DNA of 59,279 nucleotides from IMG/VR virus record IMGVR_UViG_3300040816_001340, positions 1 through 59,279 of that record. The stretch is one strand, 5' to 3'. The position numbers and the translations under genes are program-made. The stretch comes from a virus (lineage: Duplodnaviria; Caudoviricetes). Under the pieces are notes generated by a model that searched no databases, was not told the DNA's origin, and worked only from the letters and a program-made list of their open reading frames with translations. This document shows positions 39,084 to 59,279 of the stretch, piece after piece; within the stretch, counting starts at the first letter, position 1; each line of letters begins with the position of its first letter.

Positions 39084-42000
39084 TTATTCGGGAAATTGAA
39101 CGCCGCTGTTAGTAACTATGAAGTCCATCGCAATAAACTCAATAGCACGTGTCGGAATAAATACAATTCTTCCGTTTAGTCTATTGTTATCAACATCTTC
39201 TTCAGAATTGTTTGTGTCATCCATAACTACGCGGAAGTCTTCAATTCCTTGACCTAGTCTAATTAGAGAAAGTCTATTACTTGCTGCTTCAATAAATCTA
39301 GCTCTTGTTTGTTGATCATTTTGCTCGAAGAGTAATCCTTGAGCTAGTTCTTCAATTTGTCTCTTAATTTCTAAAACAAGTCTTCTTACGTTAACTCTAT
39401 CAAGAGAGGTTGCAGCTAGTTGAAGAGTTTTTTGACCAAAGATAACAAATTGTTTATTAGGGAAGTTAGCAATAGGATTGATTCTATTCTCGTATAAAGT
39501 ATCTCTATCTTCACTATTTAGTCTAACAACAGTACTTTGAACTCTTTCCAAACCACCTCTATTAAATCCTGCAGGTGCAAACCAAGGAGCAGAAATTGCA
39601 TCATTTTTTGCAAGTGCGCCAAGAGCTACTACTGAAGATGGAACTTTGACTAGTCTCTCTGCTCCTTCGACTTCATAACCTGCATCTCTAATGTAAACAT
39701 CAGGATAGTAAACTGCAGAGAAATTATTATCAACAGATCTTTGATCAAACAAAGTAGAAGTTTCTTCAACATCAGGAACTGAAGTGCCGTCAGTAACAGT
39801 CTGACCAAAAAGTCTCTTACCAGCTTCATCATAAGAAGGAATGTCCATTACATAAATTGCTTTACCATAGTCTCTTACTTTTAATAAAGCTTCATCTGTA
39901 ACAAAACTATCACGAATGCCAGGAATTGCTAAAGCATTGTAGTTTACTAACATCGGATCTGTCATTAAACGAATTGCATTATTGTATGAGTTGACAATGT
40001 TATTATCCAATTCAGCGCCTTGCATTAATGCGTCAGATGTTCTTGCTAATCCACTATCAAAGCCACTAGTACTTGCTTTACCTTCAGGGGTAACACTATG
40101 TGTCGAAGTAGCTCTATCATTAAAGTAGTAGCTATCTTCATCCATGATGTTAATACCATCAAAGCCGCCAAAGAAAGTTGCTGTAAATTTAGCAAACTCT
40201 GAATATCTATTAAACTTCTTTGTGTCTTCTGCTAACAATGATGCAAATGTTACTCTATCTTTGTCTGGACTTGAAGTCGATTTTGATAAAATGTCTGCAT
40301 TTAAGTTTATTGTATAACGAGAGTTATCAAATTTGGCCGAAGCAACATCAGCATCTCTAATGTACGCAGCATTTTTAATTTCATCGTATGGACCTGTTAG
40401 GTCTGCAACTGTACTTCCACTAAAAGCAACTCTAGATAAAGAGAATTTATTGCTATTGAAATTATCAGCTTCAGAACTATCAATATCAAAAGATGTTCCA
40501 AACTTATCAATACATAAGAATTTAGCATAGCTTTCAAAAAGTCTATTAAATCCTTTTCCTCCTGAATTGTTTGGCTTGTCAATATCGTTAACGCGAGACG
40601 TGTTAACTCCCCAGTAAAGCCTACTATCAACACTTTCTTGTGTAGATGCTTGTCCTAAATATTCTTTGGGAGACCCTACATTAATATCACCTTTTGTAAC
40701 CTTAAATCTATGTGGTACAGGAGGTAAGACAGAAAACGCCAGTGTATTAATATGTGCAGCATCTAAAGTATCAGGAGTTTTACCTCCTGTACCAAAAATT
40801 GCACTTGCAACATCTGTGCCAGCGGCTTCTGATCCAGTCAAGAAAGCCATATTATCACTACGACCATCACGTCCATCTGAAGTTGTCTTAAGAAGTGGAA
40901 GCCCTCTAAAGCCGAATGGTAACGCCTCTTCTGGAATTTCTTCGTTAATAACGTCAGCAGACATTACAACTCTAATGAGCCTAGAGTTATTAGGGAATGT
41001 ACCTTCTGTCATTAAACGCTTTTCGTCAGGTGTTGTAGTGTCTAAGTTAAGAGAAAGTTTTTTGTCCCCAATTATTCTAGCAATATAGTTAGAGCTTTTT
41101 GGATCTAAGTTACAATTTGAGAAGCTCTCAATAATAACAGGCTTTTCATCAGAGTCTCTTAAATCTCTAAGCTCAACTGTAAATGATCCGTATTTGTAGT
41201 TAGGATCATTGCTTGCACGAAGATCTCTAATAGAAACTTTATAGTTATCTGTTGCATAAACACCGTCGTCTTTTGCTTCTAGGTGGAAAAGATTATATTC
41301 TTTATTACCAAAAGGCTGAGAAATAAATGAAGGTGATCTTGGTGTTCTATATCTTGTTTCAAACTGGCCGTATGCGTTAGCAATTGATCCTGCAGTATCA
41401 CCGCTATCTAGACTTAAGTCAGTAAATGATGACGTTAAACCGCAGAGAATAGCTGCCGGTTTACCAGCTGATGAAGCAACTGCCTTATCAACAGGAAAGT
41501 CTGCATAAAGAAAATGCTTCTTAGATGAAAGAAGATAAGGATTAGTATTTAATACATTTGAAATATAGCTAGGACTATCTGGATCAAATGACACTGGGTA
41601 CGCTGATGAAGCTCCGTCTACAGATGAAGAAAAGAATAGATTAACAATGCTATTGCTATCAATCAGTGAAGCGTCACCTGCAGGTCTTGAACTATCATCA
41701 TCAGGCTTTGCTGTAACAGAAGAAGCTGTTAAATAAACAGTTGTATCTTTATCTAAAAACAACATACCTCTTACTAACTGGACACCTAATTCTTGTGAGC
41801 TTCCAGAAACGCTTTGGTTGTCACTAAACATTGGATATGTATATGACTCATTTTCATCAAGAGAGTGAGACGCAACAAGCATGTGAACAGATCCAGCGTG
41901 TCTTAAATTATCTGAAAGTGTTCCACTAGCAAAAAATCCTGCGTTAGAAACACGACCCGTCTCTTCAAAAGTAGAAGCAGTATCTACATCTTTACCTGTA

Positions 42001-42272
42001 CCTAAAACTCTCATGAAAGTTAAAGATGCATTATCACCTTTTGATTGAAAATATTCACTAACAGCATGTCCTGCTGGCATATTTTGATCAATTTTACCAA
42101 ATCTTTTTTTGAATTCATCTAAGCTACCAACAGTTACAGGAACAAATGCAGGTCCTCTTTCTGCAGGCCCTATAACTCCAAAAGGAGTTGAGCTTGGACC
42201 TCTCTTTGGAGGTGCAATTACTTCAATTTCTCTTTCAAAAAAGCCTGGAGACTTAAAAGTTTGTTCAGCCAT
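39084..42272 (-). CDS. Tail sheath protein paralogue 1
   Basis: SPGFFEREI, GPAERGPAFVP, WFAPAGFNRG, FGQKTL, LDRVNVRRL, PTRAIEFI. Confidence 0.95.
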   Translation of the reverse strand: MAEQTFKSPGFFEREIEVIAPPKRGPSSTPFGVIGPAERGPAFVPVTVGSLDEFKKRFGKIDQNMPAGHAVSEYFQSKGDNASLTFMRVLGTGKDVDTASTFEETGRVSNAGFFASGTLSDNLRHAGSVHMLVASHSLDENESYTYPMFSDNQSVSGSSQELGVQLVRGMLFLDKDTTVYLTASSVTAKPDDDSSRPAGDASLIDSNSIVNLFFSSSVDGASSAYPVSFDPDSPSYISNVLNTNPYLLSSKKHFLYADFPVDKAVASSAGKPAAILCGLTSSFTDLSLDSGDTAGSIANAYGQFETRYRTPRSPSFISQPFGNKEYNLFHLEAKDDGVYATDNYKVSIRDLRASNDPNYKYGSFTVELRDLRDSDEKPVIIESFSNCNLDPKSSNYIARIIGDKKLSLNLDTTTPDEKRLMTEGTFPNNSRLIRVVMSADVINEEIPEEALPFGFRGLPLLKTTSDGRDGRSDNMAFLTGSEAAGTDVASAIFGTGGKTPDTLDAAHINTLAFSVLPPVPHRFKVTKGDINVGSPKEYLGQASTQESVDSRLYWGVNTSRVNDIDKPNNSGGKGFNRLFESYAKFLCIDKFGTSFDIDSSEADNFNSNKFSLSRVAFSGSTVADLTGPYDEIKNAAYIRDADVASAKFDNSRYTINLNADILSKSTSSPDKDRVTFASLLAEDTKKFNRYSEFAKFTATFFGGFDGINIMDEDSYYFNDRATSTHSVTPEGKASTSGFDSGLARTSDALMQGAELDNNIVNSYNNAIRLMTDPMLVNYNALAIPGIRDSFVTDEALLKVRDYGKAIYVMDIPSYDEAGKRLFGQTVTDGTSVPDVEETSTLFDQRSVDNNFSAVYYPDVYIRDAGYEVEGAERLVKVPSSVVALGALAKNDAISAPWFAPAGFNRGGLERVQSTVVRLNSEDRDTLYENRINPIANFPNKQFVIFGQKTLQLAATSLDRVNVRRLVLEIKRQIEELAQGLLFEQNDQQTRARFIEAASNRLSLIRLGQGIEDFRVVMDDTNNSEEDVDNNRLNGRIVFIPTRAIEFIAMDFIVTNSGVQFPE

Positions 42273-47556: not shown

Positions 47557-48111
47557 TTATTTAGCTATTCTTAAAACTAATACAGTTGTTAAAGAAGAAA
47601 CAATTGCGCCACCAAAACCATAAAGTGTATAACGCAGTCTTGTTGAATCATGTTGCTCTCTCTCTGTTGCTAAATCTTCTTCTGCTTTTGCCAAGTCTTC
47701 TATTAACAATGCCGTCCTATCATCACAGTCTTCTTGGCAACTTTCAACTTCTGTAATACATGAGTCTACTCTTGCATCACATTCTCTTGTAAAGTCATCA
47801 GGCAAGCTATCAATAACTGTTTGTATTAAACCAACATCAGATCTTCGAAGAATATATCCTTTATGTGGAGCAGGTGCACCTTCAGGAACAAAATCAGCTA
47901 CAACTTTAAGTAATCCAATCTGAAACGTAATAGGTTTAACTACAGGTTTGACTTGCATTTCCGGAACGTCTAACAAAAGTCTAGAAGGCTCAGATCTACT
48001 TGATGCACCTTCTTGCGCGACTTGTTGTTGGCTGTATGCATTGCCTGCAAAAGAAATAAAAACTATTAATAAACTTAAAATCTTATTTAACATAAATCTT
48101 ACTCTTGACAA
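47557..48111 (-). CDS. Envelope protein: signal peptide, Cys-rich coiled coil, C-terminal TM (spanin-like candidate)
   Basis: ILSLLIVFISFAGNAYS signal; EC..RV.SC..EV.SC..DC heptads; terminal hydrophobic helix. Confidence 0.55.
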   Translation of the reverse strand: MSRVRFMLNKILSLLIVFISFAGNAYSQQQVAQEGASSRSEPSRLLLDVPEMQVKPVVKPITFQIGLLKVVADFVPEGAPAPHKGYILRRSDVGLIQTVIDSLPDDFTRECDARVDSCITEVESCQEDCDDRTALLIEDLAKAEEDLATEREQHDSTRLRYTLYGFGGAIVSSLTTVLVLRIAK

Positions 48112-48419
48112 GCTAGCTCTTCGCAGTTAACTCTAAATCTCTCTAACTTTTCCTGGCATGCTACACGCTCGGATTTATGACATGATCGAATTCTCTCATC
48201 ACAATCAGTAACTTTACTGCCTCTACATGTTGTTAATTGACCTTCTAACTTGGCGATATCATCTGTATATTTTCGGCAAATTGTCTCTCTATCAACAGGT
48301 GCTGTAAGACGACCTATACCAAAAGCTAATGTTAGTGCTAAAATGCCACCAATAACTGCAGCACCTAATTTGCTGTGCTGTGAAGCTAATTTATTAAACT
48401 CTTCGATTTGTTTTTTCAT
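48099..48419 (-). CDS. N-anchored membrane protein with Cys-rich coiled coil (i-spanin-like candidate)
   Basis: TM LGAAVIGGILALTLAFGIG, then a helix with 7 Cys; overlaps the next gene. Confidence 0.55.
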   Translation of the reverse strand: MKKQIEEFNKLASQHSKLGAAVIGGILALTLAFGIGRLTAPVDRETICRKYTDDIAKLEGQLTTCRGSKVTDCDERIRSCHKSERVACQEKLERFRVNCEELACQE

Positions 48420-49922: not shown

Positions 49923-50312
49923 TTATGGCTTTCTAAAAATAGTAGCATCTTCTCTATTAGCTGATGATATGTCAATAACATCGTTATCGTCTAAATCAAG
50001 AGTATTTCTTGCATCTTTTTTGATTAAGTAAACTTTACCGTCTTGACCAACTGCAACTTTAGCTGTAAACTCAACACCTTTAACCATTTCTTTTAGGCTA
50101 CTACCAGGAGTATAATGAGCTTTATCGTAAGGTTTAGCAACAGCTTTGCCACTTTTGTCTTTATAAACTGAAACGTCTTCTAGTTTTATATTTAGTCCAT
50201 ATTTCTTTAATATATCTTCAATGCTTGCATTAGCATTTCTAAAATAAATAAGTGGATCTACTTCTTCGTTTAAGTAATTGTTCCATTCTTTTAATAGCTG
50301 CTTAAAGTTCAT
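49923..50312 (-). CDS. Hypothetical protein with LLKEW..YLNE leader (paralogue of next ORF)
   Basis: MNFKQLLKEWNNYLNE; C-terminal AKVAVGQDGKVYLIKKD. Confidence 0.75.
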   Translation of the reverse strand: MNFKQLLKEWNNYLNEEVDPLIYFRNANASIEDILKKYGLNIKLEDVSVYKDKSGKAVAKPYDKAHYTPGSSLKEMVKGVEFTAKVAVGQDGKVYLIKKDARNTLDLDDNDVIDISSANREDATIFRKP

Positions 50313-51175
50313 TATTGTTCATCCTCTCCTTCAAAAGGAAATATGTTCTCTACTAAAGATACTAAAGATCCATCTTTCTTTTTAACGTATAGATTGCCTT
50401 CAACGTCTATGACAAATTTAGCATTATAGAAAATATAGTCTACGTTATCATCTCTTGCTAAGTCAAAAACTTTTGCAACGTTCATGCTTTCTTCTGTAAA
50501 GCCAATTACTCTCATCTGATTAAGAAATGTATTAATAACTGACTCTATTCTTTTCTTATAGATAATATCTCTAAGTTTTGCTTCTCTAACAAGTCTTTCT
50601 TGCTTGTCTCTTTCTACAGTGTCCTTAAATACTCTACTATCATCTCTATCTTTTTCATCGCTAGAAATTGTCATAGGATCCATGTTTAGCGCAATATGAA
50701 GCGCAGCTTCTGCAACATCTTTAATACCTGACAATATTGATGAAAAACCAACTTCTTTTTGATCTTCATCACGTATTTCAGGTTCTATTTTTACTTGACT
50801 TGAGTCATTACTTAATTGCTCTAATTGTTTTTCTGCAAGCCTATATTCTCGATCACTATATTCTTTAACTCTGCTGCTAAGATTTGATTTTGCACTTTCA
50901 AATATCTTCACTTCAGCTTTTATTTTATCATCTCTTTCAACTTCATGCTCATTTTTTAACGCCCTATAAAGACTTAAGTCTACACCTACATTAAAAGAGT
51001 TAGGATCATAGTCAATATCGCCTAGTATTATTTCGCAGTTTTCTTTCATCTCTTTGAAGAATCTTTCATCAAGAGTAAAGTCATAGTCATCTGGACCGCC
51101 GTAAACCGGCTTATCATGTGGCCCAGACTCATTAATATAACTGCGCCACTCTTTTAATAGATCTTTCGTTTTCAT
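50312..51175 (-). CDS. Hypothetical protein with LLKEW..YINE leader
   Basis: Likely start MKTKDLLKEWRSYINE at 51175 (GAGG RBS); C-terminal AKFVIDVEGNLYVKKKD. Confidence 0.75.
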   Translation of the reverse strand: MKTKDLLKEWRSYINESGPHDKPVYGGPDDYDFTLDERFFKEMKENCEIILGDIDYDPNSFNVGVDLSLYRALKNEHEVERDDKIKAEVKIFESAKSNLSSRVKEYSDREYRLAEKQLEQLSNDSSQVKIEPEIRDEDQKEVGFSSILSGIKDVAEAALHIALNMDPMTISSDEKDRDDSRVFKDTVERDKQERLVREAKLRDIIYKKRIESVINTFLNQMRVIGFTEESMNVAKVFDLARDDNVDYIFYNAKFVIDVEGNLYVKKKDGSLVSLVENIFPFEGEDEQ

Positions 51176-51234
51176 ATTATTACCTCTATAATACATATTT
51201 ATATTGTATGAGATAATATAAACAGGCTAAAACT

Positions 51235-51921
51235 ATGTATAAATACGATAACCTCGTAACTATTTTAGAAACTAACAATGAACAACATAAAACGTGGACA
51301 CTAAATGAAAATTACGAATTCATTCTTCAAGAAAAAAGATTTTCTAAGTGGTATGATTTCAAAGAAGTTGCTGTAAATGATTTATATGATTTATATTCAC
51401 TTTTAGAATCATGCCAAAATAATCCACATCAAAGTATCATTCGAGGAAAAATAAACGAAAAAGCATGGAAGCATAAGCTTGATGGCTATAAAATAACTAG
51501 ATCAAAAGATTTCATTAAAGACTATCCTAAACGATGGATCATGTTTGACATTGATAACTTCTTAAAGCCTGAAAGTGTTGATATTACTCGTTCTAAAGGT
51601 CGCAAAGAATCAATTGAGATTTTCTTAGAATCCTTAGGTAGTCAATTCAAAGAAACGTCTTATATTTGTCAGTTTTCTAATGGAATGTTTCCTACTAGCG
51701 AAAAAATAAAAGCTCACTTGTGGTTTATGCTAGATAAACCTGCAAAATGTCAAGAGTTAAAAGAATACTTTACTAAAGACAAATACAACTTAGATACATG
51801 TGTTTTTAATGCACCTCAAATATATTACACTTCAAAACCTAAGTTTACGAACTGCTTAGACCCACTATCAGAATCTAGACTTTATTTGATAGAAAAAAAG
51901 AACAACTTATTAAAACTGTAA
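51235..51921 (+). CDS. Stand-alone archaeo-eukaryotic primase (AEP/prim-pol)-like domain
   Basis: WIMFDIDN (DxD), QFS...KAHLWFML (His motif), LDTCVF..PQIYYT..P.F. Confidence 0.65.
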   Translation: MYKYDNLVTILETNNEQHKTWTLNENYEFILQEKRFSKWYDFKEVAVNDLYDLYSLLESCQNNPHQSIIRGKINEKAWKHKLDGYKITRSKDFIKDYPKRWIMFDIDNFLKPESVDITRSKGRKESIEIFLESLGSQFKETSYICQFSNGMFPTSEKIKAHLWFMLDKPAKCQELKEYFTKDKYNLDTCVFNAPQIYYTSKPKFTNCLDPLSESRLYLIEKKNNLLKL

Positions 51922-51957
51922 ATTTTTATTTATATTTAGCATAGACAAGGAGAAAAA

Positions 51958-52542
51958 ATGAAAATTTCACTAAATGAGCTAAGAAAAATTGTTAGAAACA
52001 CCATTACGGAAGCACTTGATGACGATCGCATGTCACGCCCAAGCATGAGCGATGAGTATGCAGAGACAACTGCACAAGGTCTTGGCAGCGCAGCGGAAAC
52101 CGGTTATATGCATGGTTTAGGCTATTATGATGCAGATCGTCAGGCATTTGTTGCAGGTAAGGTAGATCTTGACATTGATCCTGCACTTGCTGATAACGAG
52201 CTTTTAGATGGCCCAGCTTCACCACTTTCATATGCTGATAGAGGTGATGTTGTTATTGACATGACAGTTCTATTCGGCGCACCAGGCTCTGTTCAGTCAG
52301 GTGAAATGAGATCAAGAGAGACAATTTATCTTAAAGATGGCGACCCTATTCTAGCAAAGATTAGAAAAGCATATAACGAGCCTTCAGTTGATGGCTCTTT
52401 CGAAAGCAGAAGAGACGCAATTTATGGTGCTCTAGATATCTTAGCACAAAATGACCTTATTCCAATCGAGACACAGCCTGAAGATGTTTCTGTTGTAACA
52501 ATGGGTATGGGCACAAGAAAGCTTAGCGAACTAGTAAGGTAA
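51958..52542 (+). CDS. Hypothetical acidic protein with MKISLNELRKIVR..ITE leader (putative internal head protein)
   Basis: AAGGAG RBS; ATATTTAG motif at 51932-51939. Confidence 0.72.
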   Translation: MKISLNELRKIVRNTITEALDDDRMSRPSMSDEYAETTAQGLGSAAETGYMHGLGYYDADRQAFVAGKVDLDIDPALADNELLDGPASPLSYADRGDVVIDMTVLFGAPGSVQSGEMRSRETIYLKDGDPILAKIRKAYNEPSVDGSFESRRDAIYGALDILAQNDLIPIETQPEDVSVVTMGMGTRKLSELVR

Positions 52543-52546
52543 AGCA

Positions 52547-53638
52547 ATGACTTTTAGGCACAAAAAAAAACTTTTAGCTAATGCATTTGAAGAGTTAGCT
52601 TTAGAATGTATGAAAATACAAGTTCAAAAAGATAGAGACATTTATGAATATGCTCCTTCAATTGTTAATTTTCATAAAAACTTAATTCTAGGAAATCTTC
52701 AAGAAAGCTTAAATAAAGATTTTTTTGTCTATAACTATGACACTATCCTTAGAGAAAAGATAGATCATAGTAGTTTTCCAGTGTCAAATAGAAGACAAAT
52801 GGACAAGATAAATAGCATGCCACTTTCTATCTCAGAACGAGTAAAAAATGGTTATCTATTCAAACCTAATCACCTCTATTTAGAAAATAACTTGGTTAAA
52901 ATCAACTGGAAAAAGTTTAATCTAGAAGAACACATCAAATTCTTAAAAGAAAGTATTGTTCACGAGTCAATATCTATTTGTGATACAAATGTATTAAATG
53001 GCTACTGGGACGGATCAGATCTTTTAATGCAAAAGTCAAAAGGCATGATCAACGAAAGTGGTGCATTAGACTGTGATAAAAAGCCATATTCATACGCTAG
53101 AAAAGTATTTAATAAAACAGGTAAAGAAATTTATCGTGCTTTATCTAAAGAAGGTTTCTTAGTAGAAAACATATATGACGCCGGATCTTTAAGAAGAAAG
53201 AAAAGTGTTGTTGGTGATATTGACTTTATTGTAAACATCGTTGGTCATAATAAGCTAGGGCAGCTTAATAATAACGATTATAGAGAAGAAAAAATCTTTA
53301 CCGAACAATATCAGTGGTTATTTGGAAACGCTATTAAAAAGAATATAGAGACTGATATTTGTAAGTCTTATAAGAATATTACGCAGTTTATATCTGAAGG
53401 TATGCAATGTGATGTATTTTTCTGCACACCAACTTCTATTTCGACAAGAAGATGTTATTGGACAGGATCAGCAGCACATAATGTTAAGATTCTATATGAA
53501 GGCTTTAAGAAAGATATTATATTTTCTTTTGACTACATTTATGACAAAAATAACAAAAAGCTTCTAAAACCCAAGAGTGAAAAAGAGATCTTTAATATAT
53601 TTGGTCTCGATTACGTTCCACCAGAACAAAGATATTAA
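52547..53638 (+). CDS. Family X DNA polymerase with divergent N-terminal region
   Basis: AGSLRRKKSVVGDIDFIV, QCDV, YWTGSAAHN, SEKEIF..FGLDYVPPEQR. Confidence 0.9.
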   Translation: MTFRHKKKLLANAFEELALECMKIQVQKDRDIYEYAPSIVNFHKNLILGNLQESLNKDFFVYNYDTILREKIDHSSFPVSNRRQMDKINSMPLSISERVKNGYLFKPNHLYLENNLVKINWKKFNLEEHIKFLKESIVHESISICDTNVLNGYWDGSDLLMQKSKGMINESGALDCDKKPYSYARKVFNKTGKEIYRALSKEGFLVENIYDAGSLRRKKSVVGDIDFIVNIVGHNKLGQLNNNDYREEKIFTEQYQWLFGNAIKKNIETDICKSYKNITQFISEGMQCDVFFCTPTSISTRRCYWTGSAAHNVKILYEGFKKDIIFSFDYIYDKNNKKLLKPKSEKEIFNIFGLDYVPPEQRY

Positions 53639-54150
53639 TCAGCTTTAATCTTATAATATCTGTTATGAGGTAGATCCGGCGTAAAGAACAGAATTCTATT
53701 ACCTTCTGGATCTACAAGTTCAAAATTTGTATCGCCCCATGATGTTTTTTCTAGACTGCCAATCTTAATGTTCTTTCTAGAAAACTTATCATGTAGACTT
53801 TGCACATTCTTTACACGAATTGACATAGAACAATTACCAAAGAATTTTCTATTAGCACCTTTCTTACTAAAAAGCTCTAATATGTTTCCACCTACATTTA
53901 TCATTGTCCCATCACCACTAGCGTCTCTCCAATAACGAACAACAGGAAACTCAAGAATCTTATTATAAAATCTAGTCATTTCTTGCATGTTATCAACATA
54001 CATGTGAACTCTAACTTCTCTAGAGTAAGGCCTCCAAGATTTACCTAAATCTATTCCTGCTTCCTGCGCAGCTTTAACATCAGTTGCAGTTGGCGACGTA
54101 TTTACTTTCTTTTTCTCTACTTTGTCGTTCTGACTTAAGAATCCAATCAT
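53635..54150 (-). CDS. VOC / glyoxalase-bleomycin-resistance family protein
   Basis: V.NM.E..RFYNKILEF, LELF, IRVKNV, WGDTNFELVDPEGNRILF. Confidence 0.88.
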   Translation of the reverse strand: MIGFLSQNDKVEKKKVNTSPTATDVKAAQEAGIDLGKSWRPYSREVRVHMYVDNMQEMTRFYNKILEFPVVRYWRDASGDGTMINVGGNILELFSKKGANRKFFGNCSMSIRVKNVQSLHDKFSRKNIKIGSLEKTSWGDTNFELVDPEGNRILFFTPDLPHNRYYKIKAD

Positions 54151-54875
54151 TGTTTAACCATTTCTATTAACTTTAGCTCTTCTAATATAGGTATTACATC
54201 GTTATTTGTCTTATAATAAGCTTTTGACAAAGAAGATTTAAGCCAACCATCACTTAAACTCTCTTCTCCACTTCTTTTAAGAACATTCTTGAAGGTTGAT
54301 ATTTGCTCTATGTCATCTGAAGGGTCATCTTTTGTGTATTTCGGAACAACGATATCGTCTCTTACACCCTTTATACCTAGTTCTCCAGGCGTGCCAAATA
54401 TACTTTCATAATCCATCTGGATATATTCTAAGTTACCTTCGCTCTGTGATCGTCTGAGATAATAGTCCCAAACCCTTTCAGCATCATCTGAAACTGTTAG
54501 TCTGTCCGACATTAACATTCCTCTCTTAGAAGAAACGTATTCTAAAGCAACTTCATATAATAAAGGACCCCAAGACCTTTCGGCGCTAGATGATGTTGTC
54601 TGCCAGATACTTTTGTTGTTAAAAGTCTTCTGACCAGATCCACTATAAACCCAGTCTATATTAACATAACCATATATTTTCTGCCCAGGAACAAAAGAAG
54701 TGTCCACATATTTAACGTTTATCATGTTACCAACTTCTTCGATTAGTATCTTGCAGCTGTTTTCTTCTCTTTTATTATAGAAAAACAAAGTTTGCACAGA
54801 TTCTTTTATTCTGTCAATTCCTTTGTTTTGCCTTTCTAATAACAACCCTATATACTCTTTTAATAATCTTGACAT
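54147..54875 (-). CDS. GNAT-like (acetyltransferase-fold) protein with MSRLLKEYI..LLE leader
   Basis: SWGPLLYEVALE...LMSDRL.VSDDA.RVW resembles the acetyl-CoA-binding region of phage GNAT-like domains; ATATTTAT motif at 54895-54902. Confidence 0.55.
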   Translation of the reverse strand: MSRLLKEYIGLLLERQNKGIDRIKESVQTLFFYNKREENSCKILIEEVGNMINVKYVDTSFVPGQKIYGYVNIDWVYSGSGQKTFNNKSIWQTTSSSAERSWGPLLYEVALEYVSSKRGMLMSDRLTVSDDAERVWDYYLRRSQSEGNLEYIQMDYESIFGTPGELGIKGVRDDIVVPKYTKDDPSDDIEQISTFKNVLKRSGEESLSDGWLKSSLSKAYYKTNNDVIPILEELKLIEMVKQ

Positions 54876-55002
54876 CTTGCACCTTAGCTACATTATAAAT
54901 ATGCCTTTTAAGATAACATAAATAACTTCTGCAAGACTTTCTTTAGAAAGATATATAAATACTTACACAGAAAAACATGCAGCAGATTTTATTAAATAAT
55001 AA

Positions 55003-55752
55003 CTACTTTTTCTCGTTATTTCTACTATCAAATACACTTGCCATCGCAGACCCTAAGATACCTGTTAAAACAAGCAAGACTCTTTCTATCATCGCTAAAG
55101 AATCTTTGGCGTCATTGTTACCTGTTACCCACGATGTTATAATCAACAAACCTAACATTGTTATTAAACCAACAGTTCCCGTAAAGATTTGTCGCAATAG
55201 CGTTATTTGTCCGGTCATCTTTTTTTCTTGCAACAAAGCATCTTCAGCTATCTCTTTGGCTTCTTCAGACTTTCGTCTTAGCTCTTCAAGCTGTGCAATA
55301 GCTTTTTCATTATCCGCTAAACTCTTTTCAAGTTCTTTTTCTCTTTTAACTTCGCTAGACCTATCAGCAAATATAGCAACAAAGTATCTTTCTTCACTAT
55401 TTTTTATATCAGCAACATTTGCTTTCAAAGGTATTAGACTTCCATCTTTAGCAACACCTTCTAAACTTCTCCAGTTGCCCATAATACCACTGCTTCGATG
55501 ACCAGATGCTGTTTCTGAAGTTTCTTTATAGTTGTTAACATATGTTCTATGACTTTTAGCAATATTCATAGGCATAAGCTTACGAACATCTAAACCATTC
55601 ATTTCTAAGTGCTGATATTTGAACAACTGTGTTGCAGGACTATTAGCATATCTTATTACTAAGTCACCTGATTTATCTTGAGGATAGTCACAGACAACAA
55701 TAGCTATCTGCAACCTATTACCCATCATTTCTAATGTTTCTATGACTTTCAT
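55003..55752 (-). CDS. FixL-type heme-PAS domain + coiled coil + two C-terminal TM helices
   Basis: IRYAN.PATQLF.Y...M.G.DVRKLMP.....H..Y...Y...IMGNWR...GVAKDG..IP, YFVAIFAD; no kinase or cyclase domain; ATATTTAT motif at 55769-55776. Confidence 0.88.
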   Translation of the reverse strand: MKVIETLEMMGNRLQIAIVVCDYPQDKSGDLVIRYANSPATQLFKYQHLEMNGLDVRKLMPMNIAKSHRTYVNNYKETSETASGHRSSGIMGNWRSLEGVAKDGSLIPLKANVADIKNSEERYFVAIFADRSSEVKREKELEKSLADNEKAIAQLEELRRKSEEAKEIAEDALLQEKKMTGQITLLRQIFTGTVGLITMLGLLIITSWVTGNNDAKDSLAMIERVLLVLTGILGSAMASVFDSRNNEKK

Positions 55753-55782
55753 TGCTACCTCTTATAAGATAAATATGATGTT

Positions 55783-57162
55783 TTAGTCCCAAACCCATAT
55801 ATTACTTCCACAACCCCATACCTTAAATAGTTTGAGCTTAGTAACCTTTTCTATTTCTTTCTCGTTCTTATCTGTCTTAAACATAAATCGATCAAATCTT
55901 TGAACACCATCAGAATACCAATAATCAACTCCTGTGTTACCAACATACTGAAATCCTACTTTCTCATACCCTAACCCTTCACCAAATCTTCGATCTGCAT
56001 ATGTCATGATACTTCCTTCATTATTTGCCTTAAAATACTTAAGAAGTTTACTTAATCCTCCTACTACGTTTGTATTTAACTGCGACGCAAACCTGCTAAT
56101 CTCCCAATAACCTTTCCATTTTCTCTGTCTAGGTTTTCTAAATCCTATTGCAGAAACTAACTTGCCATTATAGAACAGACCTAACTTAATACTACTATTT
56201 ACTTTGCCACTTATATGACATTCATTCATAAAGTTATTAAAAACTTTTGTTTCTAACTCTCTAACAACACATTTTCTTGCCCATATTCTTTCACATAAAC
56301 CTAAGCGACTTCTAATCATACTTTTGCAAATATCTTTCTTAAAATCCCATTCATCTGAAAATATGTGCATTAGTTTTGCGTTTTGTTCTAGCACTTTTTC
56401 TGTTTTATTTTTTAGTTCATTTTTTGACGTTCTATCAACTAGTTCACTATGCCAATACAAACCATTATATTCTATGCCAAAATGCTTGTCTGCAACATAT
56501 ATGTCTATCTCTTTAGGCTTTATTAGAGTTCTATCGTTACTTTTAACACTTTCGTCGACTAATGTCTTAACAAAATCATACACTTCGATTTCACTTTTAC
56601 TTCTAGAAATAGGATAACATTTAGGGCACAAAGATCCTCTTTCAAAAGCTTGTAATGTTTTCTTACAAACAAAGTCACATTTTTTACACTTAAACTCTAA
56701 ATACTGCCTTTGTCTACTAAAATACTCTTCTAAGGGAGTTAAGATTTCAAACTCTTCATTTCTCTGTAGTATTCGCTCTAATACTTTTTTATCACCTAAT
56801 CTTTTAGTAAAACTAATTCTATTTATTGTTTCTTCGCTATGTTTCTTTCCCCAAAAAGGATTGTCTTTACCCTTTTGACCTTTTATTCTGCTATCTTCTT
56901 TAGAAGTTTTGCCTTTATTCCACGCCTCATGACGACCGCCCCTTCGGCCACCTTCAGACATAGCAACCTTTGAACAATCAGAACAATACTTCTTAAACTG
57001 AAATGCTACATAACGTGTTTCTTTGCCGCAATTCTTACATCCTACATTGTTATTGTAAATGTATTTAGCCGTATATTCTTTACTTAAAAGTTTATGCTCT
57101 TTTTTTAAGTGATTGCTAAAATCTTTACCACTTGACTCATAATCACATATCTTGCATATCAT
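55783..57162 (-). mobile_element. Free-standing Hef/Vsr-like homing endonuclease with Zn fingers, NUMOD3 repeats and C-terminal GNAT/Mom-like domain
   Basis: Likely start MICKIC at 57162; AWNKG and NPFWGKKHSEET (NUMOD3); SKSE..EIDIY..IEYNGLYWHS..HIFSDEW nuclease; EISRFAS..GGLSKLLKYF..TYADRR. Confidence 0.82.
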
Positions 57163-57220
57163 ATCATTATACCTTTTCGTGGTGTCTATATAATATATAT
57201 GCACAACTTTTTTTATATAC

Positions 57221-57244
57221 AAAAAAACCAGCCGAAGCTGGTTT
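57221..57244 (-). terminator. Rho-independent terminator of the major capsid gene with cUUCGg tetraloop
   Basis: Minus strand AAACCAGC-TTCG-GCTGGTTT followed by a T-run. Confidence 0.9.
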
Positions 57245-57257
57245 CTTCTAGACCGAC

Positions 57258-57271
57258 CTAGCCGAAGCTAG
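57258..57271 (-). other. Second cUUCGg hairpin in the capsid 3' UTR (probable mRNA stabiliser)
   Basis: CTAGC-TTCG-GCTAG immediately upstream of the terminator. Confidence 0.7.
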
Positions 57272-57280
57272 ATGTTATCC

Positions 57281-59107
57281 TTAGATAATGTTCATGTCGA
57301 GGCAGGTAACTGTTCCGTAGAAGTCAGCACGTACCATCTTCTTACCGTAGCGTGTCATAACGCCCTTGCGAGGTGTGAAATCCTCTGGCGCGAAGATTGT
57401 CGGAGTGACGATGAGAGGAACGTAAGGAGCGTAGACGAAGCCTGTCTCAAGGTAGCTACCGCCCTTGTAACCGACGAGGATCTTGTTACGTGGGAAGTAG
57501 GGGTCCTTGTAAACGGTGAAGCGGTTGCTAAGTGTACCGATCTTCTCTGCACCCATTGTGAAAGGAGCACCAACCTGGCCGTCACCGTCGAGGCTGTAAG
57601 CAGGACGATAAAGAACAGATGCTTCAAGGATTGTTGCAACGTCAGGTGAAACAACGATGAAGTTCGCGGAACCGCGAAGTGTCTTTCTGTGGATTTCGTT
57701 AGCAACGTCGATAACGGTCTCGGTAAGAGTCTCGTACCACTCACGAACTGTACCAGTGAAAGCTGGTCCAGGGGTGAGAGTGCTTGTGCGAGCAATCTCT
57801 GCACCGGTCTGCTTGTTAACGAACTTACCAGGGCTACGACTCCAGTAGTAGTTTGCACCTTGTGCCTGGGTAAGAAGGTCATTAAGAATCTCACGGTCGA
57901 TCTCAAGGGCGATCTGCTCGGAGAGGATCTGTGTAAGCTCAACCTCTGCGTCCATGCTGTGGTAAGCGTTAAGATCCTGTGCGAGCTCTGGGGACCAACG
58001 AGCTCTGAGCTTTCTGGTCTGTGCTGTTACAGGGATTGACTCAATCTTAATATCGATCTCAGGAATAACAGGAGTCTGTGCGCTTCCAAGACCCATGTTG
58101 GACTCAAATGCAGGAACTGTAAGAGTATCGCCACCTGAAGCGCTGGCCTCAAAGGAGTCAGCTTTGACATAAGAAAGGTGAACCTCGGCTGCTACAGGTG
58201 CTTCTGTCCCAGAAAGAACTAAAAGAACCTGAGAACCATTGATAGGATCAGGTGTCCAAGTTGTTCCGCTTAAGCTACCAAGCTGGTTAAGTCTACGAAC
58301 GTTAAGAGCTTCGCCACCTTGTAATGTGCCCAAGTCTGTTTCAATGTCTTTATTCATAGCCTGAGAACCAGTCGCCATAAGTGCGAAGTCTTTAACTGCA
58401 GTTTTATCAGCAGCAGATGGAACATCAGCAGCAACAAAGAAGAACTTACCTTCTGAGTTGTCAATAAGGTCTAGAACTTGCGGGTCAAATTGTAGAAGCT
58501 TTGCGTCTGCTGTTGTGCTTGTTGAAGCAGCTCCGACAGAGGCGCCTAGATTAACAAATCCTGCCGCTGTAAATGAGTCTCCGTTGCCAATTCCGTGAGA
58601 AGTTTCTACATCGTGAACTCGTGAAAAACCGCTGCCAGCTAGATCATATTGACCACCAACACCAAGTGAGCCGCTTTGGACGCCTTTACCTGTTGGACTA
58701 TTGTAAATGCTCTGACCAGCCTTGTATGTGCTAGGTGAATCAGCGTCGCCGCCAACATCACTACCATAGGTATAATCAAGGTAGAAGAGGAGACCGCTTG
58801 GAAGGCTCATTGGCTGAATGGAGACGAGCTCATTTGCAACGAGACCACCGAAAACGCGGCGGACGATTGGGAATGCGATGTTGGTGAAACCGCGGATGTC
58901 GCTGCTACCATCGCTACCGAGAGTGTTTGCCTCACGGAGGACCTGCGCTGCCTGGTTCTCGAGGAGTGTAGACATGTTCTCACGTGCTACATCATCAAGA
59001 CCACGAAGAAGACCTGTGCGGTTCCACTTCTCAACAAGGCGCTTGTTCTGGGTGCCAACGTGACGCTGACGAATACCTTCTGTTAACTGTTGTAGATTAA
59101 ATGACAT
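57281..59107 (-). CDS. gp23: Major capsid protein (T4 gp23-like)
   Basis: LVEKW, LLENQ, P.VRR, QPM..PSGL.F, TRKL.A.W..ELAQDL.A.H..DAE.EL, EIDREI, YAPYVPL, F.PR.G.MTRYG; AGGAGA RBS. Confidence 0.97.
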   Translation of the reverse strand: MSFNLQQLTEGIRQRHVGTQNKRLVEKWNRTGLLRGLDDVARENMSTLLENQAAQVLREANTLGSDGSSDIRGFTNIAFPIVRRVFGGLVANELVSIQPMSLPSGLLFYLDYTYGSDVGGDADSPSTYKAGQSIYNSPTGKGVQSGSLGVGGQYDLAGSGFSRVHDVETSHGIGNGDSFTAAGFVNLGASVGAASTSTTADAKLLQFDPQVLDLIDNSEGKFFFVAADVPSAADKTAVKDFALMATGSQAMNKDIETDLGTLQGGEALNVRRLNQLGSLSGTTWTPDPINGSQVLLVLSGTEAPVAAEVHLSYVKADSFEASASGGDTLTVPAFESNMGLGSAQTPVIPEIDIKIESIPVTAQTRKLRARWSPELAQDLNAYHSMDAEVELTQILSEQIALEIDREILNDLLTQAQGANYYWSRSPGKFVNKQTGAEIARTSTLTPGPAFTGTVREWYETLTETVIDVANEIHRKTLRGSANFIVVSPDVATILEASVLYRPAYSLDGDGQVGAPFTMGAEKIGTLSNRFTVYKDPYFPRNKILVGYKGGSYLETGFVYAPYVPLIVTPTIFAPEDFTPRKGVMTRYGKKMVRADFYGTVTCLDMNII

Positions 59108-59159
59108 TATATATTCTCCTATATGTGTGTTTTGTCATATTTTCCGACTCTAAAAAATA

Positions 59160-59279
59160 TCAGCCCTTGATACCTGCTAAGAGTGCCCAGCGATCAACCT
59201 CAACTCGATTCTTCGCGGGCTGAGCGCTGCGAGTTGAACGGGAAGATGTGCCAAGAACACGACGGGAGGTTCCTTCGGT
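59160..59279 (-). CDS. C-terminus of probable prohead scaffold/core protein (partial)
   Basis: Translated by hand: TEGTSRRVLGTSSRSTRSAQPAKNRVEVDRWALLAGIKG*; RW..LAGI end and position directly upstream of the capsid gene. Confidence 0.65.
   Translation of the reverse strand, partial: TEGTSRRVLGTSSRSTRSAQPAKNRVEVDRWALLAGIKG

What the first reader, a model, noticed from the sequence alone, without database searches (positions are those of the whole stretch)
55003..55776. Kinase-less FixL-type heme-PAS sensor fused to a coiled coil and a 2-TM hairpin: possible O2-gated lysis or membrane regulator
Seen: the PAS segment DVRKLMPMNIAKSHRTYVNNY...GIMGNWRSLEGVAKDGSLIP aligns with the FixL heme pocket (NILMPEPDRSRHDSYISRY...IIGIGRIVTGKRRDGTTFP). 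The proximal heme His and the distal O2-stabilising Arg are both kept, with a short FG-loop insertion. It is followed by a ~55-aa coiled coil and two hydrophobic helices ending in a short charged tail (DSRNNEKK). There is no enzymatic output domain, and the gene has the late motif and its own RBS. Established: FixL/EcDOS heme-PAS domains sense O2 and signal through coiled coils to kinases or phosphodiesterases; holins are small TM proteins with charged C-termini. Inference: the output is the membrane hairpin itself, e.g. a holin/antiholin or channel that ties lysis timing to O2 or redox state, or a decoy that interferes with host O2-sensing kinases. I know of no described phage system like this.
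Basis: partly seen in the sequence, partly recalled or inferred. Interest (0 to 1): 0.86.

Follow-up and report, generated by a model that had tools for sequence, protein, structure and literature searches.

The report
Phage heme sensor fused to lysis-cassette membrane hairpin
A large uncultured aquatic phage encodes a small protein that joins an oxygen-sensor-type heme domain to a very conserved two-helix membrane module, and sensor-less versions of that module sit in the cell-bursting gene clusters of other phages, so the phage may tie the timing of host lysis to oxygen or redox state.

Summary
Window 55003..55752 (-) encodes a 249-aa protein with four parts: an N-cap helix, a FixL-class PAS domain, a roughly 50-aa parallel coiled coil, and a two-TM hairpin with a short charged tail. 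It has no enzymatic domain. By sequence and by fold, the best PDB matches are FixL heme domains and then DosP. The proximal His (H68) and the G-beta Arg (R95) are present in 115 of 115 ordinary family members. Heme binding itself is untested.

The gene is not a kinase fragment. It belongs to a metagenome-only phage family: 164 clusters were found, and nearly all of the 120 listed are 241-265 aa. None was found in GenBank phages or GTDB genomes.

The most conserved part is TM2, not the sensor. PAS-less homologues of 120-175 aa (short coiled coil plus the same hairpin) lie in endolysin cassettes of other phages. A heme-less PAS variant lies beside a VanY-type endolysin.

Best reading, at about 0.45: a ligand-gated membrane component of lysis control, of holin or antiholin type. 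No holin family matches, and most full-length copies are not beside lysis genes. The "late motif" was not confirmed. I class this as a new variant of known kinds, with high interest.

The parts
55003..55752 (-). Whole gene: 249 aa plus the stop codon at 55003..55005
   Evidence: ORF list and translation. Full-length homologues of 45-96% identity exist.
55757..55763 (-). Ribosome-binding site AAGAGGT, 5 nt before the ATG
   Evidence: Read directly from the minus-strand sequence.
55714..55746 (-). N-cap (A'alpha) helix, residues 3-13. In the dimer model it packs on the partner's beta-sheet.
   Evidence: AF2 secondary structure. Dimer contacts of residues 1-16 with 112-129 of the other copy.
55360..55704 (-). 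PAS core, residues 17-131, of the FixL/DOS heme-PAS class
   Evidence: Sequence matches and fold matches.
55549..55551 (-). His68 codon, the candidate proximal heme ligand; aligns with the FixL proximal His
   Evidence: Alignment. Present in 116 of 123 sequences in A2, that is 115 of 115 ordinary members.
55468..55473 (-). Trp94-Arg95 codons. Arg95 aligns with the FixL G-beta Arg that contacts bound O2. Trp94 is invariant and touches the partner's N-cap in the dimer model.
   Evidence: Alignment. W94 in 123 of 123 and R95 in 117 of 123 sequences. Contact between residue 94 and residue 15 of the other copy.
55210..55359 (-). Parallel coiled coil, residues 132-181
   Evidence: Single helix 132-210 in the AF2 model. 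Heptad-spaced inter-chain contacts from 137 to 179.
55129..55206 (-). TM1 and its cytoplasmic approach, residues 183-208. It continues the coiled-coil helix and ends at the invariant W208.
   Evidence: Hydropathy. Mean column entropy 0.89 bits.
55087..55128 (-). Short outer loop, residues 209-222
   Evidence: AF2 loop at 211-214. Only one Lys in the loop.
55021..55086 (-). TM2 with its flanking charges, residues 223-244 (ERVLLVLTGILGSAMASVFDSR). This is the most conserved part of the protein, rich in small residues. The ER/KD pair sits at 223/224.
   Evidence: Mean entropy 0.32 bits against 1.54 for the PAS core. ER in 82 and KD in 41 sequences, never mixed. The same helix occurs in PAS-less homologues.
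55006..55020 (-). Variable charged C-terminal tail, residues 245-249 (NNEKK)
   Evidence: entropy 2.93 bits.

Best explanation
The protein is a homodimeric membrane protein with both termini in the cytoplasm.

Its cytoplasmic N-terminal domain is a FixL/DOS-class PAS domain. It most likely holds heme b on His68 and reads a diatomic ligand (O2, possibly NO or CO) or redox state through Arg95 and the FG loop.

The invariant Trp94 and the N-cap helix lie at the dimer interface. From there a continuous parallel coiled coil runs straight into TM1.

The output is the two-TM hairpin itself. Its TM2, rich in Gly, Ala and Ser, is under much stronger constraint than the sensor. The same hairpin also exists as a free-standing 120-175-aa protein encoded inside endolysin cassettes of other phages.

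I therefore read the hairpin as a component of phage lysis control: holin-like, antiholin-like, or a partner of either. I read the fusion as a way to make lysis timing depend on oxygen or redox state in estuarine and marine hosts.

Shown by tools: the architecture, FixL-class similarity in sequence and fold, the residue conservation, the predicted dimer, the module's presence in lysis cassettes, and the phage-only distribution.

Inferred: heme binding, the identity of the ligand, the topology, any effect on the membrane, and the direction of regulation.
For: Sensor:
- The top PDB sequence hits are all FixL heme domains, then DosP.
- The NCBIfam FixL heme-PAS region matches at E 2.4e-9 and DosP at 1.2e-5.
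- Foldseek's 18 top listed hits are FixL heme domains.
- H68 and R95 are present in 115 of 115 ordinary family members.
- Five of the eight divergent members that I added on purpose lack both residues, which suggests the two work as a pair.

Dimer:
- Complex prediction with 2 copies and 2 hemes scored 0.57, best of 3 controls 0.19.
- That mark was reached by 20 of 30 proteins solved as pairs of one chain and by 1 of 23 solved as single chains.
- Runs agree in at least 76% of contacts, and partner pLDDT is at least 72.
- The interface is N-cap on beta-sheet plus heptad contacts 137-179.
- This resembles solved PAS dimers, so the pass may come from memory.

Output:
- Mean column entropy is 0.32 bits for TM2, 0.89 for TM1, 1.54 for the PAS core and 1.94 for the coiled coil.
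- Residues 223/224 are ER in 82 sequences and KD in 41, never mixed.
- Homologues without a PAS domain keep TM2 almost letter for letter.

Lysis context:
- Of 41 PAS-less loci with an F0 ORF (F0 is my label for this hairpin gene family), 29 have a PG_binding_1+CHAP endolysin homologue within about 1 kb.
- 28 of these show the order endolysin, small 2-TM protein, TM+coiled-coil protein, F0.
- 10 of the 12 loci without an endolysin hit have under 720 nt of upstream sequence.
- Several of these loci are the same contig fetched twice, and most belong to one phage lineage.
- Independent arrangements: L047 has Peptidase_M15_3, F0, CHAP endolysin.
- L050 has endolysin, TM+coiled-coil protein, F0, with no other 2-TM gene detected.
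- L044 has lipobox lipoprotein, TM+coiled-coil protein, F0.
- The L013 group (His-less PAS form, 3 loci) has a VanY+PG_binding hydrolase just upstream.
- The L006 group (heme-type form) has an M10 peptidase and an SLT transglycosylase just downstream.

Distribution:
- 164 clusters were found, with no hit in 50,697 GenBank phage records.
- None was confirmed in 185,579 GTDB species genomes.
- Family members occur on viral contigs of 75 to 375 kb.
Against: - No holin, antiholin or spanin family in Pfam, PHROGs or NCBIfam matches this protein or its PAS-less relatives. The PDB also gives nothing for the hairpin profile.
- Holin TM helices usually diverge fast (general knowledge). Near-identity of TM2 across phages from 35% to 61% GC fits binding to a conserved partner at least as well as pore formation.
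- The small-phage cassettes already hold a more typical 82-94-aa 2-TM holin candidate. The module could therefore be an accessory.
- The 97 usable loci fall into 26 context groups, and only 4 groups have a peptidoglycan hydrolase within about 3 genes. Among full-length heme-type forms only the L006 group does. The rest sit among DNA-metabolism, methylase and unknown genes.
- In this window the nearest hydrolase, the amidase at 7845..8621, is about 46 kb away.
- The FixL propionate ligands Arg206 and His214 align with N74 and G89 here (the residue numbers follow from the chain numbering in that alignment). The pocket therefore differs from FixL.
- Pfam PAS_9 is below its gathering score.
- The dimer model gives no confident contacts within the TM region.
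- No RNA or protein evidence exists.
Confidence: 0.45

Rival explanations
1. A membrane-tethered sensor that acts on another membrane protein through TM-TM contacts. The partner would be, for example, a host or phage histidine kinase, a respiratory complex or a transporter. The hairpin would be a docking surface, and the output would be regulation of host physiology rather than lysis.
For: - TM2 is conserved on all helix faces across very different phages, as expected for binding a conserved partner.
- In L015, on a 133-kb phage contig, the PAS-less module is followed 34 nt downstream by a TM-anchored hybrid kinase (HisKA+HATPase_c+Response_reg) that has almost no sensor domain of its own.
- A 491-aa relative, P0217, carries the same N-terminal PAS type on a real kinase.
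- Most full-length copies are not near lysis genes.
Against: - The kinase neighbour occurs in one lineage only. A search of 5 phage records found a histidine kinase only in L015's record. The other hit was a 676-aa open frame just over the cut-off that I did not examine further.
- The PAS-less module is embedded in endolysin cassettes in several arrangements, which this reading does not explain.
- No candidate partner has been identified.
Confidence: 0.25
2. The hairpin is only a membrane anchor. The protein would be a heme-binding or heme-handling accessory protein, for storage, delivery or detoxification, or a decoy that heterodimerises with host PAS sensors through its N-cap and coiled coil.
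For: - It has a FixL-class pocket with His68.
- The N-cap plus coiled-coil dimer interface is of the kind used by sensor kinases.
- Effector-less 'short' PAS/LOV proteins exist and appear among the fold hits.
Against: - An anchor would not be the most conserved part of the protein.
- An anchor would not persist as a free-standing PAS-less protein.
- The ER/KD swap points to specific contacts at the outer end of TM2.
- Conservation of the O2-contacting Arg points to sensing rather than storage.
Confidence: 0.1
3. The PAS domain does not bind heme. It would bind another small ligand or serve only as a dimerisation and regulatory module, with His68 and Arg95 kept for other reasons. This rival concerns the sensor only and is compatible with any reading of the output.
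For: - The equivalents of FixL Arg206 and His214 are missing, and the FG loop carries a 7-residue insertion.
- The distal Leu236 position is Ala in 95 of 123 sequences.
- Family members without His or Arg keep the rest of the architecture.
- No experiment exists.
Against: - Every top sequence and fold match is a heme-PAS, ahead of LOV and other PAS classes.
- His and Arg are invariant in 115 of 115 ordinary members and tend to be lost together.
- The LMP motif and Tyr75 of the heme pocket are also kept.
Confidence: 0.2

Closest known systems
FixL heme-PAS domain (Bradyrhizobium and Sinorhizobium O2 sensor kinases; PDB 1drm, 1dp6, 1d06, 8js5)
   Same: - It is the best match in sequence (E 1e-10 with the family profile) and in fold (rmsd about 2.2 A over 127 columns).
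- The proximal His, the G-beta Arg, the LMP motif and the F-helix Tyr align.
- The N-cap plus coiled-coil dimer geometry is shared.
   Different: - It has no HisKA/HATPase output. It scores 36 bits against the 850-bit cut-off of the FixL equivalog model.
- The FG loop carries a 7-residue insertion.
- The Arg206 and His214 equivalents are absent.
- It is followed by a membrane hairpin, and it is encoded by phages.
EcDOS / DosP heme-PAS (O2-sensing c-di-GMP phosphodiesterase; PDB 1v9y, 1s66, 9cmf)
   Same: It is the second-best class of matches (E 4e-9 with the profile). It shares the His and Arg positions and a helical linker to the output.
   Different: There is no EAL/GGDEF output. By the alignment, the position of the DOS distal Met is Asn93 here. 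That Met position is recalled knowledge and was not tested.
Class II (two-TM, N-in/C-in) holins and pinholins such as phage 21 S68, and actinophage holin-like pairs (recalled, not searched)
   Same: - Two TM helices, with a Gly/Ala/Ser-rich second helix and a short charged cytoplasmic C-terminus.
- PAS-less homologues are encoded right after an endolysin, together with other small membrane proteins.
   Different: - No sequence match to any holin family in Pfam, PHROGs or NCBIfam.
- It has a 180-aa cytoplasmic sensor plus coiled coil in front.
- Its TM2 is far more conserved than is usual for holins.
- Permeabilisation has not been shown.
T4 lysis-inhibition system (holin T with antiholins RI and RIII; recalled)
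   Same: The idea is shared: a gp23-type phage adjusts its lysis time to an environmental signal through proteins that act on the holin.
   Different: There is no homology. In T4 the signal is superinfection, sensed in the periplasm. Here the sensor is a cytoplasmic heme-PAS fused directly to the membrane module.
Aer aerotaxis receptor (PAS-FAD, membrane hairpin, HAMP, signalling domain; recalled)
   Same: An N-terminal cytoplasmic PAS sensor is followed by a two-TM hairpin with both ends in the cytoplasm.
   Different: Aer binds FAD, and its hairpin is an anchor followed by HAMP and MCP signalling domains. Here the protein ends 8 residues after TM2, and the hairpin is the conserved part.
Short LOV / effector-less PAS proteins (PpSB1-LOV, W619_1-LOV; PDB 5j3w, 5luv)
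   Same: They share the N-cap, PAS core and C-terminal helix, with no enzymatic effector. They are among the fold hits.
   Different: They use a flavin cofactor, are soluble and have no membrane hairpin.

Membership tests
PAS domain superfamily | Match to a curated PAS model above its cut-off | tested here: met
   TIGR00229 sensory_box scores 33.5 bits against a cut-off of 22.9. Pfam PAS_9 is below its cut-off, 22.8 against 27.
PAS domain superfamily | Five-stranded antiparallel sheet with flanking helices | tested here: met
   AF2 model with pLDDT 85.9. 412 PDB matches at E<=0.001, and the listed ones are PAS/LOV/FixL domains.
FixL/DOS-class heme-b PAS | Proximal His on the F-alpha helix | tested here: met
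   H68 aligns with the FixL proximal His. It is present in 115 of 115 ordinary members.
FixL/DOS-class heme-b PAS | G-beta Arg that contacts bound O2 (BjFixL R220, EcDOS R97) | tested here: met
   R95 aligns with it. It is present in 115 of 115 ordinary members.
FixL/DOS-class heme-b PAS | Closest relatives by sequence and fold are heme-PAS domains rather than other PAS classes | tested here: met
   The first 14 of 17 profile hits are heme-PAS. The 18 top listed fold hits are FixL.
FixL/DOS-class heme-b PAS | Heme-propionate ligands of FixL (Arg206, His214) | tested here: not met
   They align with N74 and G89. A basic residue is common in the FG insertion (position 86: R 54, K 13 of 123) and might substitute for them, but this is untested.
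FixL/DOS-class heme-b PAS | Heme actually bound, with ligand-dependent spectra | not testable with these tools
   This needs purified protein and UV-visible spectra.
FixL sensor histidine kinase (orthologue) | HisKA and HATPase_c output, and a full-length match to the FixL model | tested here: not met
   No kinase domain is present. NF041777 scores 36.4 bits against a cut-off of 850.
Holins (class II / pinholin type) | Match to a described holin family | tested here: not met
   No holin family was found in Pfam, PHROGs or NCBIfam for P0001 or for the PAS-less homologues.
Holins (class II / pinholin type) | Two TM helices, N-in/C-in, with a charged cytoplasmic C-terminal tail | tested here: inconclusive
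   Two segments pass a Kyte-Doolittle mean of 1.6, and the tail is FDSRNNEKK. The topology is inferred from the cytoplasmic PAS domain and a weak positive-inside bias. No dedicated predictor and no experiment were available.
Holins (class II / pinholin type) | Encoded next to the endolysin | tested here: inconclusive
   - Not met for this copy: the amidase is about 46 kb away.
- Met for PAS-less homologues in 29 of 41 loci.
- Met for the His-less PAS form and for the L006 group.
Holins (class II / pinholin type) | Permeabilises the membrane and releases endolysin at a set time | not testable with these tools
   This needs expression and complementation assays.
Aer-type PAS receptors | FAD-binding PAS, with HAMP and MCP signalling domains after the hairpin | tested here: not met
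   The protein ends 8 residues after TM2, and no HAMP or MCP match was found.

The most novel reading that the evidence does not exclude
This is a gas- or redox-gated lysis switch. A heme-PAS sensor would be wired through a coiled coil directly into a holin- or antiholin-type membrane hairpin. That would let large aquatic phages delay or trigger host lysis according to O2 (or NO/CO) before the host's membrane potential fails. It would be the first phage lysis clock with a built-in small-molecule sensor, and the first PAS sensor whose output is a membrane hairpin rather than an enzyme or a DNA-binding domain.
Probability: 0.3. Interest if true: 0.9.

Novelty: new variant of a known kind. Interest (0 to 1): 0.78.

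Why it matters
Phage lysis timing is thought to be set by holin accumulation and membrane energisation. T4 lysis inhibition is the classic example of input from the environment. A heme sensor fused to a lysis-cassette membrane module would show that phages can read oxygen or redox state directly and act on the membrane.

This would bear on infection dynamics in estuaries and oxygen-gradient waters, where this phage's DNA is found.

It would also define a new output type for PAS signalling and give a compact, genetically encoded ligand-to-membrane switch.

Apart from the function, the two-TM module is a large phage-only protein family that is absent from PHROGs, Pfam, NCBIfam, GenBank phages and the GTDB genomes searched. 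Its placement in endolysin cassettes makes it a candidate for a new class of lysis proteins.

Tried and rejected
- GenBank phages. tblastn of P0001 and of two PAS-less homologues, and megablast of 50000..59279, gave no match.
- GTDB genome-contig scan. 65 pattern matches, none confirmed.
- PHROGs for P0001. Only two coiled-coil-level hits at E about 0.08.
- Pfam DUF2207_C at E 0.051 and NCBIfam TIGR01620 at E 0.029 were taken as noise.
- PDB profile search with the hairpin alignment A3. Nothing below E 0.26.
- ESM Atlas on residues 170-249. It returned only viral hypothetical clusters and generic two-helix look-alikes under the bar, so no family is named.
- T4-type late promoter. Absent within 80 nt upstream. 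CATATTTAT is not significant. The sigma-70 and terminator scan gave no excess over shuffles.
- Conserved neighbours for full-length copies. None was found across lineages. A census of 145 neighbour families showed a mixed bag.
- An F10-like partner (F10 is the TM+coiled-coil gene of the cassettes) next to full-length copies. It is not consistently present.
- Lipobox search in six cassette loci. Only L044 has a candidate.
- Histidine kinases in 5 phage records. Only L015's record has one.
- Sequencing runs. No RNA holder is listed.
- Literature. Seven full-text searches found nothing describing such a protein. The terms combined phage-encoded / PAS domain / heme; PAS domain / bacteriophage / holin / oxygen; PAS domain / viral genomes / auxiliary metabolic / sensor; jumbo phage / PAS domain; FixL / phage / viral contigs; huge phages / PAS; and heme-PAS / virus / metagenom. 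I saw only the search listings and abstract starts, and read no paper. Supplements are closed.
- The 123-aa PAS-less subfamily is not in IMG/VR. Its context comes from L044, a metagenome locus carrying a 120-aa member, with a cut copy in L045.
Full report
WHAT IS THERE

The window is an IMG/VR virus record of 59,279 bases that CheckV rates as about 19% complete. It carries a gp23-type major capsid gene at 57281..59107 (Pfam Gp23, E 3.7e-78), a ClpP-like prohead protease and an Amidase_2 endolysin. Relatives of the gene studied here lie on viral contigs of 75 to 375 kb. The window is therefore a fragment of a large, AT-rich tailed phage (35% GC). Its DNA turns up in estuary and seawater metagenome runs.

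The finding corresponds to one ORF, 55003..55752 on the minus strand, of 249 aa. An AAGAGGT ribosome-binding site lies 5 nt before the ATG.

THE SENSOR

- Pfam gives only a sub-threshold PAS_9 match, 22.8 bits against a gathering score of 27. NCBIfam's TIGR00229 passes its cut-off, 33.5 against 22.9. The best NCBIfam match is the heme-PAS region of the rhizobial FixL model (E 2.4e-9), and DosP follows at 1.2e-5.
- Against all PDB sequences, the seven best single-sequence hits are FixL heme domains (E 6e-7 to 4e-6), followed by EcDOS/DosP.
- With a 123-sequence family profile, FixL reaches E 1e-10 and DosP 4e-9. The first 14 of 17 hits are heme-binding PAS domains, and only the last three are LOV.
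- An AF2 model built on the family alignment has mean pLDDT 85.9. Its 18 top listed Foldseek hits in the PDB are FixL heme domains. For the single-domain BjFixL entries, TM by target is 0.85-0.89 and rmsd 2.1-2.3 A.
- The HMMER alignment places H68 on the FixL proximal His and R95 on the G-beta Arg. The chain numbering in that alignment reproduces BjFixL His200 and Arg220.
- V56, L59-M60-P61, Y71 and Y75 also match FixL pocket positions.
- The FixL propionate ligands Arg206 and His214 align with N74 and G89, so the pocket is not identical to FixL.
- Heme binding is an inference. No tool here can show it.

THE FAMILY

The search for homologous proteins returned 164 proteins at E<=0.001 among lengths 136-436. 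Of these, 120 are listed. Nearly all are 241-265 aa, cover 98-100% of the query and come only from metagenomes. The only names attached are 'PAS domain S-box'.

I built a 123-row alignment, A2. It holds the query, 113 of the listed hits, P0128, and eight divergent relatives that I added on purpose. I left out P0009, P0048, P0068 and P0096 because they have long extensions or insertions. All four are in alignment A1, where H68 and R95 are invariant. I also left out the fragments P0061, P0066 and P0121.

In A2, H68 is present in 116 of 123 rows and R95 in 117 of 123. Every row lacking one of them is one of the eight divergent additions, so 115 of 115 ordinary members keep both. Five of the eight divergent rows lack both. 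W94 is invariant.

The exhaustive representative search found 4,297 proteins at E<=0.001. Most are cellular multi-PAS proteins, and some have 13 FixL-like repeats. One 491-aa protein, P0217, carries the same N-terminal PAS type on a true kinase. The PAS domain thus has cellular cousins, but the 249-aa architecture is a family of its own and not a kinase fragment. Neither the full protein nor PAS-less relatives match any of 50,697 GenBank phage records. A pattern scan of 185,579 GTDB species genomes confirmed none.

THE DIMER AND LINKER

The AF2 model has an N-cap helix (3-13), the PAS core (17-130), one unbroken helix from 132 to 210, a four-residue turn, and a second helix from 215 to 248.

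A two-copy prediction with two hemes scored 0.57 against a best control of 0.19.

- That mark was reached by 20 of 30 proteins solved as pairs of one chain and by 1 of 23 solved as single chains.
- Runs agree in at least 76% of contacts, and partner pLDDT is at least 72.
- The interface is the N-cap packed on the partner's sheet (residues 112-129), plus W94 against residue 15.
- Contacts at 137, 141, 144, 148, 151/152 and so on up to 179 form a continuous heptad pattern, which indicates a parallel coiled coil.
- This is the geometry of solved FixL and LOV-kinase dimers, so the pass may reflect likeness rather than independent evidence.
- No confident contacts were reported within the membrane part.

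THE MEMBRANE HAIRPIN IS THE CONSERVED CORE

Hydropathy gives two segments, about 188-208 and 225-241, joined by a loop of about 14 residues and followed by FDSRNNEKK. A cytoplasmic, signal-less heme-PAS implies an N-in/C-in topology. This is an inference.

Mean column entropy over A2:

| Region | Entropy (bits) |
|---|---|
| TM2, residues 223-244 | 0.32 |
| TM1 | 0.89 |
| PAS core | 1.54 |
| Coiled coil | 1.94 |
| C-terminal tail | 2.93 |

TM2 (ERVLLVLTGILGSAMASVFDSR) is conserved on every helical face and is rich in Gly, Ala, Ser and Thr. That argues for a helix packed on all sides, not a lipid-facing anchor.

Positions 223/224 are ER in 82 sequences and KD in 41, never mixed. This reciprocal charge swap suggests a specific salt-bridge contact at the outer end of TM2. 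That, too, is an inference.

PAS-LESS RELATIVES AND THEIR CONTEXT

I use F0 for the hairpin gene family, F26 for a small 2-TM gene and F10 for a TM+coiled-coil gene found in the same cassettes.

Scans of viral and metagenome contigs and a search restricted to short proteins (100 hits at E<=0.001 among 136 candidates) found many proteins of 120-175 aa. Each consists of a short N-terminal coiled coil and the same hairpin, with TM2 almost letter for letter.

In GC-rich phage contigs of about 33 kb the gene order is:

1. tail genes
2. a PG_binding_1+CHAP endolysin
3. F26, an 82-94-aa two-TM protein
4. F10, an N-terminal-TM plus coiled-coil protein with a weak DUF2730 match
5. F0, the hairpin protein, as the last gene of the block

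Counted over 44 loci examined, 3 lacked a recognisable F0 ORF, leaving 41.

- 29 of the 41 have an endolysin homologue within about 1 kb.
- Of the 12 without, 10 have under 720 nt of upstream sequence.
- Two, L044 and L070, lack the endolysin despite having more upstream sequence.
- Several loci are the same contig fetched from two collections, and most belong to one phage lineage. The number of independent observations is therefore much smaller than 29.

More telling are the different arrangements:

- L047: Peptidase_M15_3, F0, CHAP endolysin.
- L050: endolysin, TM+coiled-coil protein, F0, with no homologue of the small two-TM protein.
- L044: a lipobox lipoprotein, TM+coiled-coil protein, F0.
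- L013 group (three loci): a PAS-bearing but His- and heme-motif-less form, directly after a VanY+PG_binding hydrolase.
- L006 group: a true heme-type form, followed by a secreted-looking M10 peptidase and an SLT transglycosylase with a hydrophobic N-terminus.

Four different peptidoglycan-hydrolase families thus sit next to members of this family. This is the pattern expected of a lysis-cassette component.

WHAT SPEAKS AGAINST A SIMPLE HOLIN

- No holin, antiholin or spanin model in Pfam, PHROGs or NCBIfam matches any family member.
- The small-phage cassettes already contain a more typical holin candidate.
- TM2 is conserved to a degree unusual for holins (general knowledge).
- The 97 usable loci fall into 26 context groups, and only four have a hydrolase nearby. 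Most full-length copies sit among helicases, primases, nucleases, methylases and unknown genes.
- In this window the gene follows a homing-endonuclease gene and the capsid gene, and the amidase is about 46 kb away. Lysis genes are also scattered in T4 (general knowledge), so this is weak evidence either way.
- One PAS-less copy, L015, is followed by a membrane-anchored hybrid histidine kinase. This keeps alive the rival reading that the hairpin docks onto another membrane protein. Of five phage records searched, only L015's record holds such a kinase.

EXPRESSION SIGNALS

The T4 late-promoter word TATAAATA is enriched in the window: 18 copies against 8.25 expected, and none of 100 shuffles reaches 18. 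However, none lies within 80 nt upstream of this gene, even with one mismatch. A GC-rich hairpin followed by a T-run lies between the capsid gene and the endonuclease gene. It is visible in the upstream string printed, although the scan did not list it. No RNA run holds the region.

VERDICT

The best-supported mechanism is a dimeric FixL-class sensor, probably heme-based, whose conformational signal passes through W94 and the N-cap and down a continuous coiled coil into a two-TM module that takes part in phage lysis control. I put this at about 0.45.

About 0.25 goes to a TM-docking regulator of another membrane protein, and about 0.1 to an anchor-only heme protein or decoy. Independently of the output, there is about a 0.2 chance that the PAS domain does not bind heme at all.

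Seven full-text searches found no description of such a protein. I saw only the listings and read no paper. BFVD holds other viral PAS proteins, mostly kinases of giant viruses and 'PAS domain' proteins of uncultured phages, but none listed with this architecture.

It is a new variant built from known kinds of parts, and of high interest. It makes the idea of environmentally gated phage lysis directly testable with simple expression experiments.

Noticed in passing
window 55783..57222 (-): A 479-aa homing-endonuclease-like gene sits between the capsid gene and the sensor gene. It matches PHROG HNH/homing endonuclease at E 4e-78, has a NUMOD3 motif, and has a Mom-like C-terminal region just under its cut-off. 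It looks like a mobile insertion.
   Followed up: partly
window about 57223..57280 (-): A GC-rich hairpin (CCAGC TTCG GCTGG) followed by TTTTT lies just after the capsid gene. It is seen in the upstream string printed. It looks like a terminator, so the downstream genes may need their own promoter.
   Followed up: no
window 47557..48111 and 48099..48419 (-): These are two overlapping genes. One is a 106-aa protein with an N-terminal TM and a helical C-terminus. The other is a 184-aa protein with a signal-like N-terminus and a C-terminal TM. The arrangement resembles spanins, but there is no lipobox and no Pfam match.
   Followed up: partly
window 31972..35358, 36042..39059, 39084..42272 (-): Three large paralogous genes of 1005-1128 aa cluster together by BLAST (family F33). 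They are probably tail-fibre or structural paralogues.
   Followed up: no
window 52547..53638 (+) and 53635..54150 (-): A 363-aa protein with a DNA polymerase beta (PolX) thumb domain lies next to a glyoxalase/bleomycin-resistance-fold protein. Both are near the sensor gene.
   Followed up: no
whole window: The T4 late-promoter word TATAAATA is enriched: 18 copies against 8.25 expected, with 0 of 100 shuffles reaching 18. Few of the copies lie directly upstream of the ORFs of 100 aa or more that were examined.
   Followed up: partly
L015 5935..7827 (133-kb viral contig): A phage-encoded, TM-anchored hybrid histidine kinase (HisKA+HATPase_c+Response_reg, 481 aa) starts 34 nt after a PAS-less hairpin gene.
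   Followed up: partly
L006 6777..7890: Next to a heme-type family member lie a matrixin-type (Peptidase_M10) protein with a signal-like N-terminus and an SLT transglycosylase with a hydrophobic N-terminus. The latter is possibly a signal-anchor-release type endolysin.
   Followed up: partly
proteins P0122-P0171: Giant proteins of 1,700-5,500 aa carry up to 13 tandem FixL-like PAS repeats. They are the strongest non-family hits to the sensor domain. Their origin and His content were not examined.
   Followed up: no
alignment A2, residues 217, 220, 223, 224: The family splits cleanly into an ER group (82 sequences) and a KD group (41) at 223/224. Linked changes are D/E at 217 and A/S at 220. 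PAS-less relatives show both states.
   Followed up: partly
L003/L004/L005 5016..5952: In the 375-kb phage lineage, two genes precede the sensor gene. One is a 102-aa protein with two TM helices and a charged C-terminus, which looks like a holin. The other is a pentapeptide-repeat protein.
   Followed up: partly
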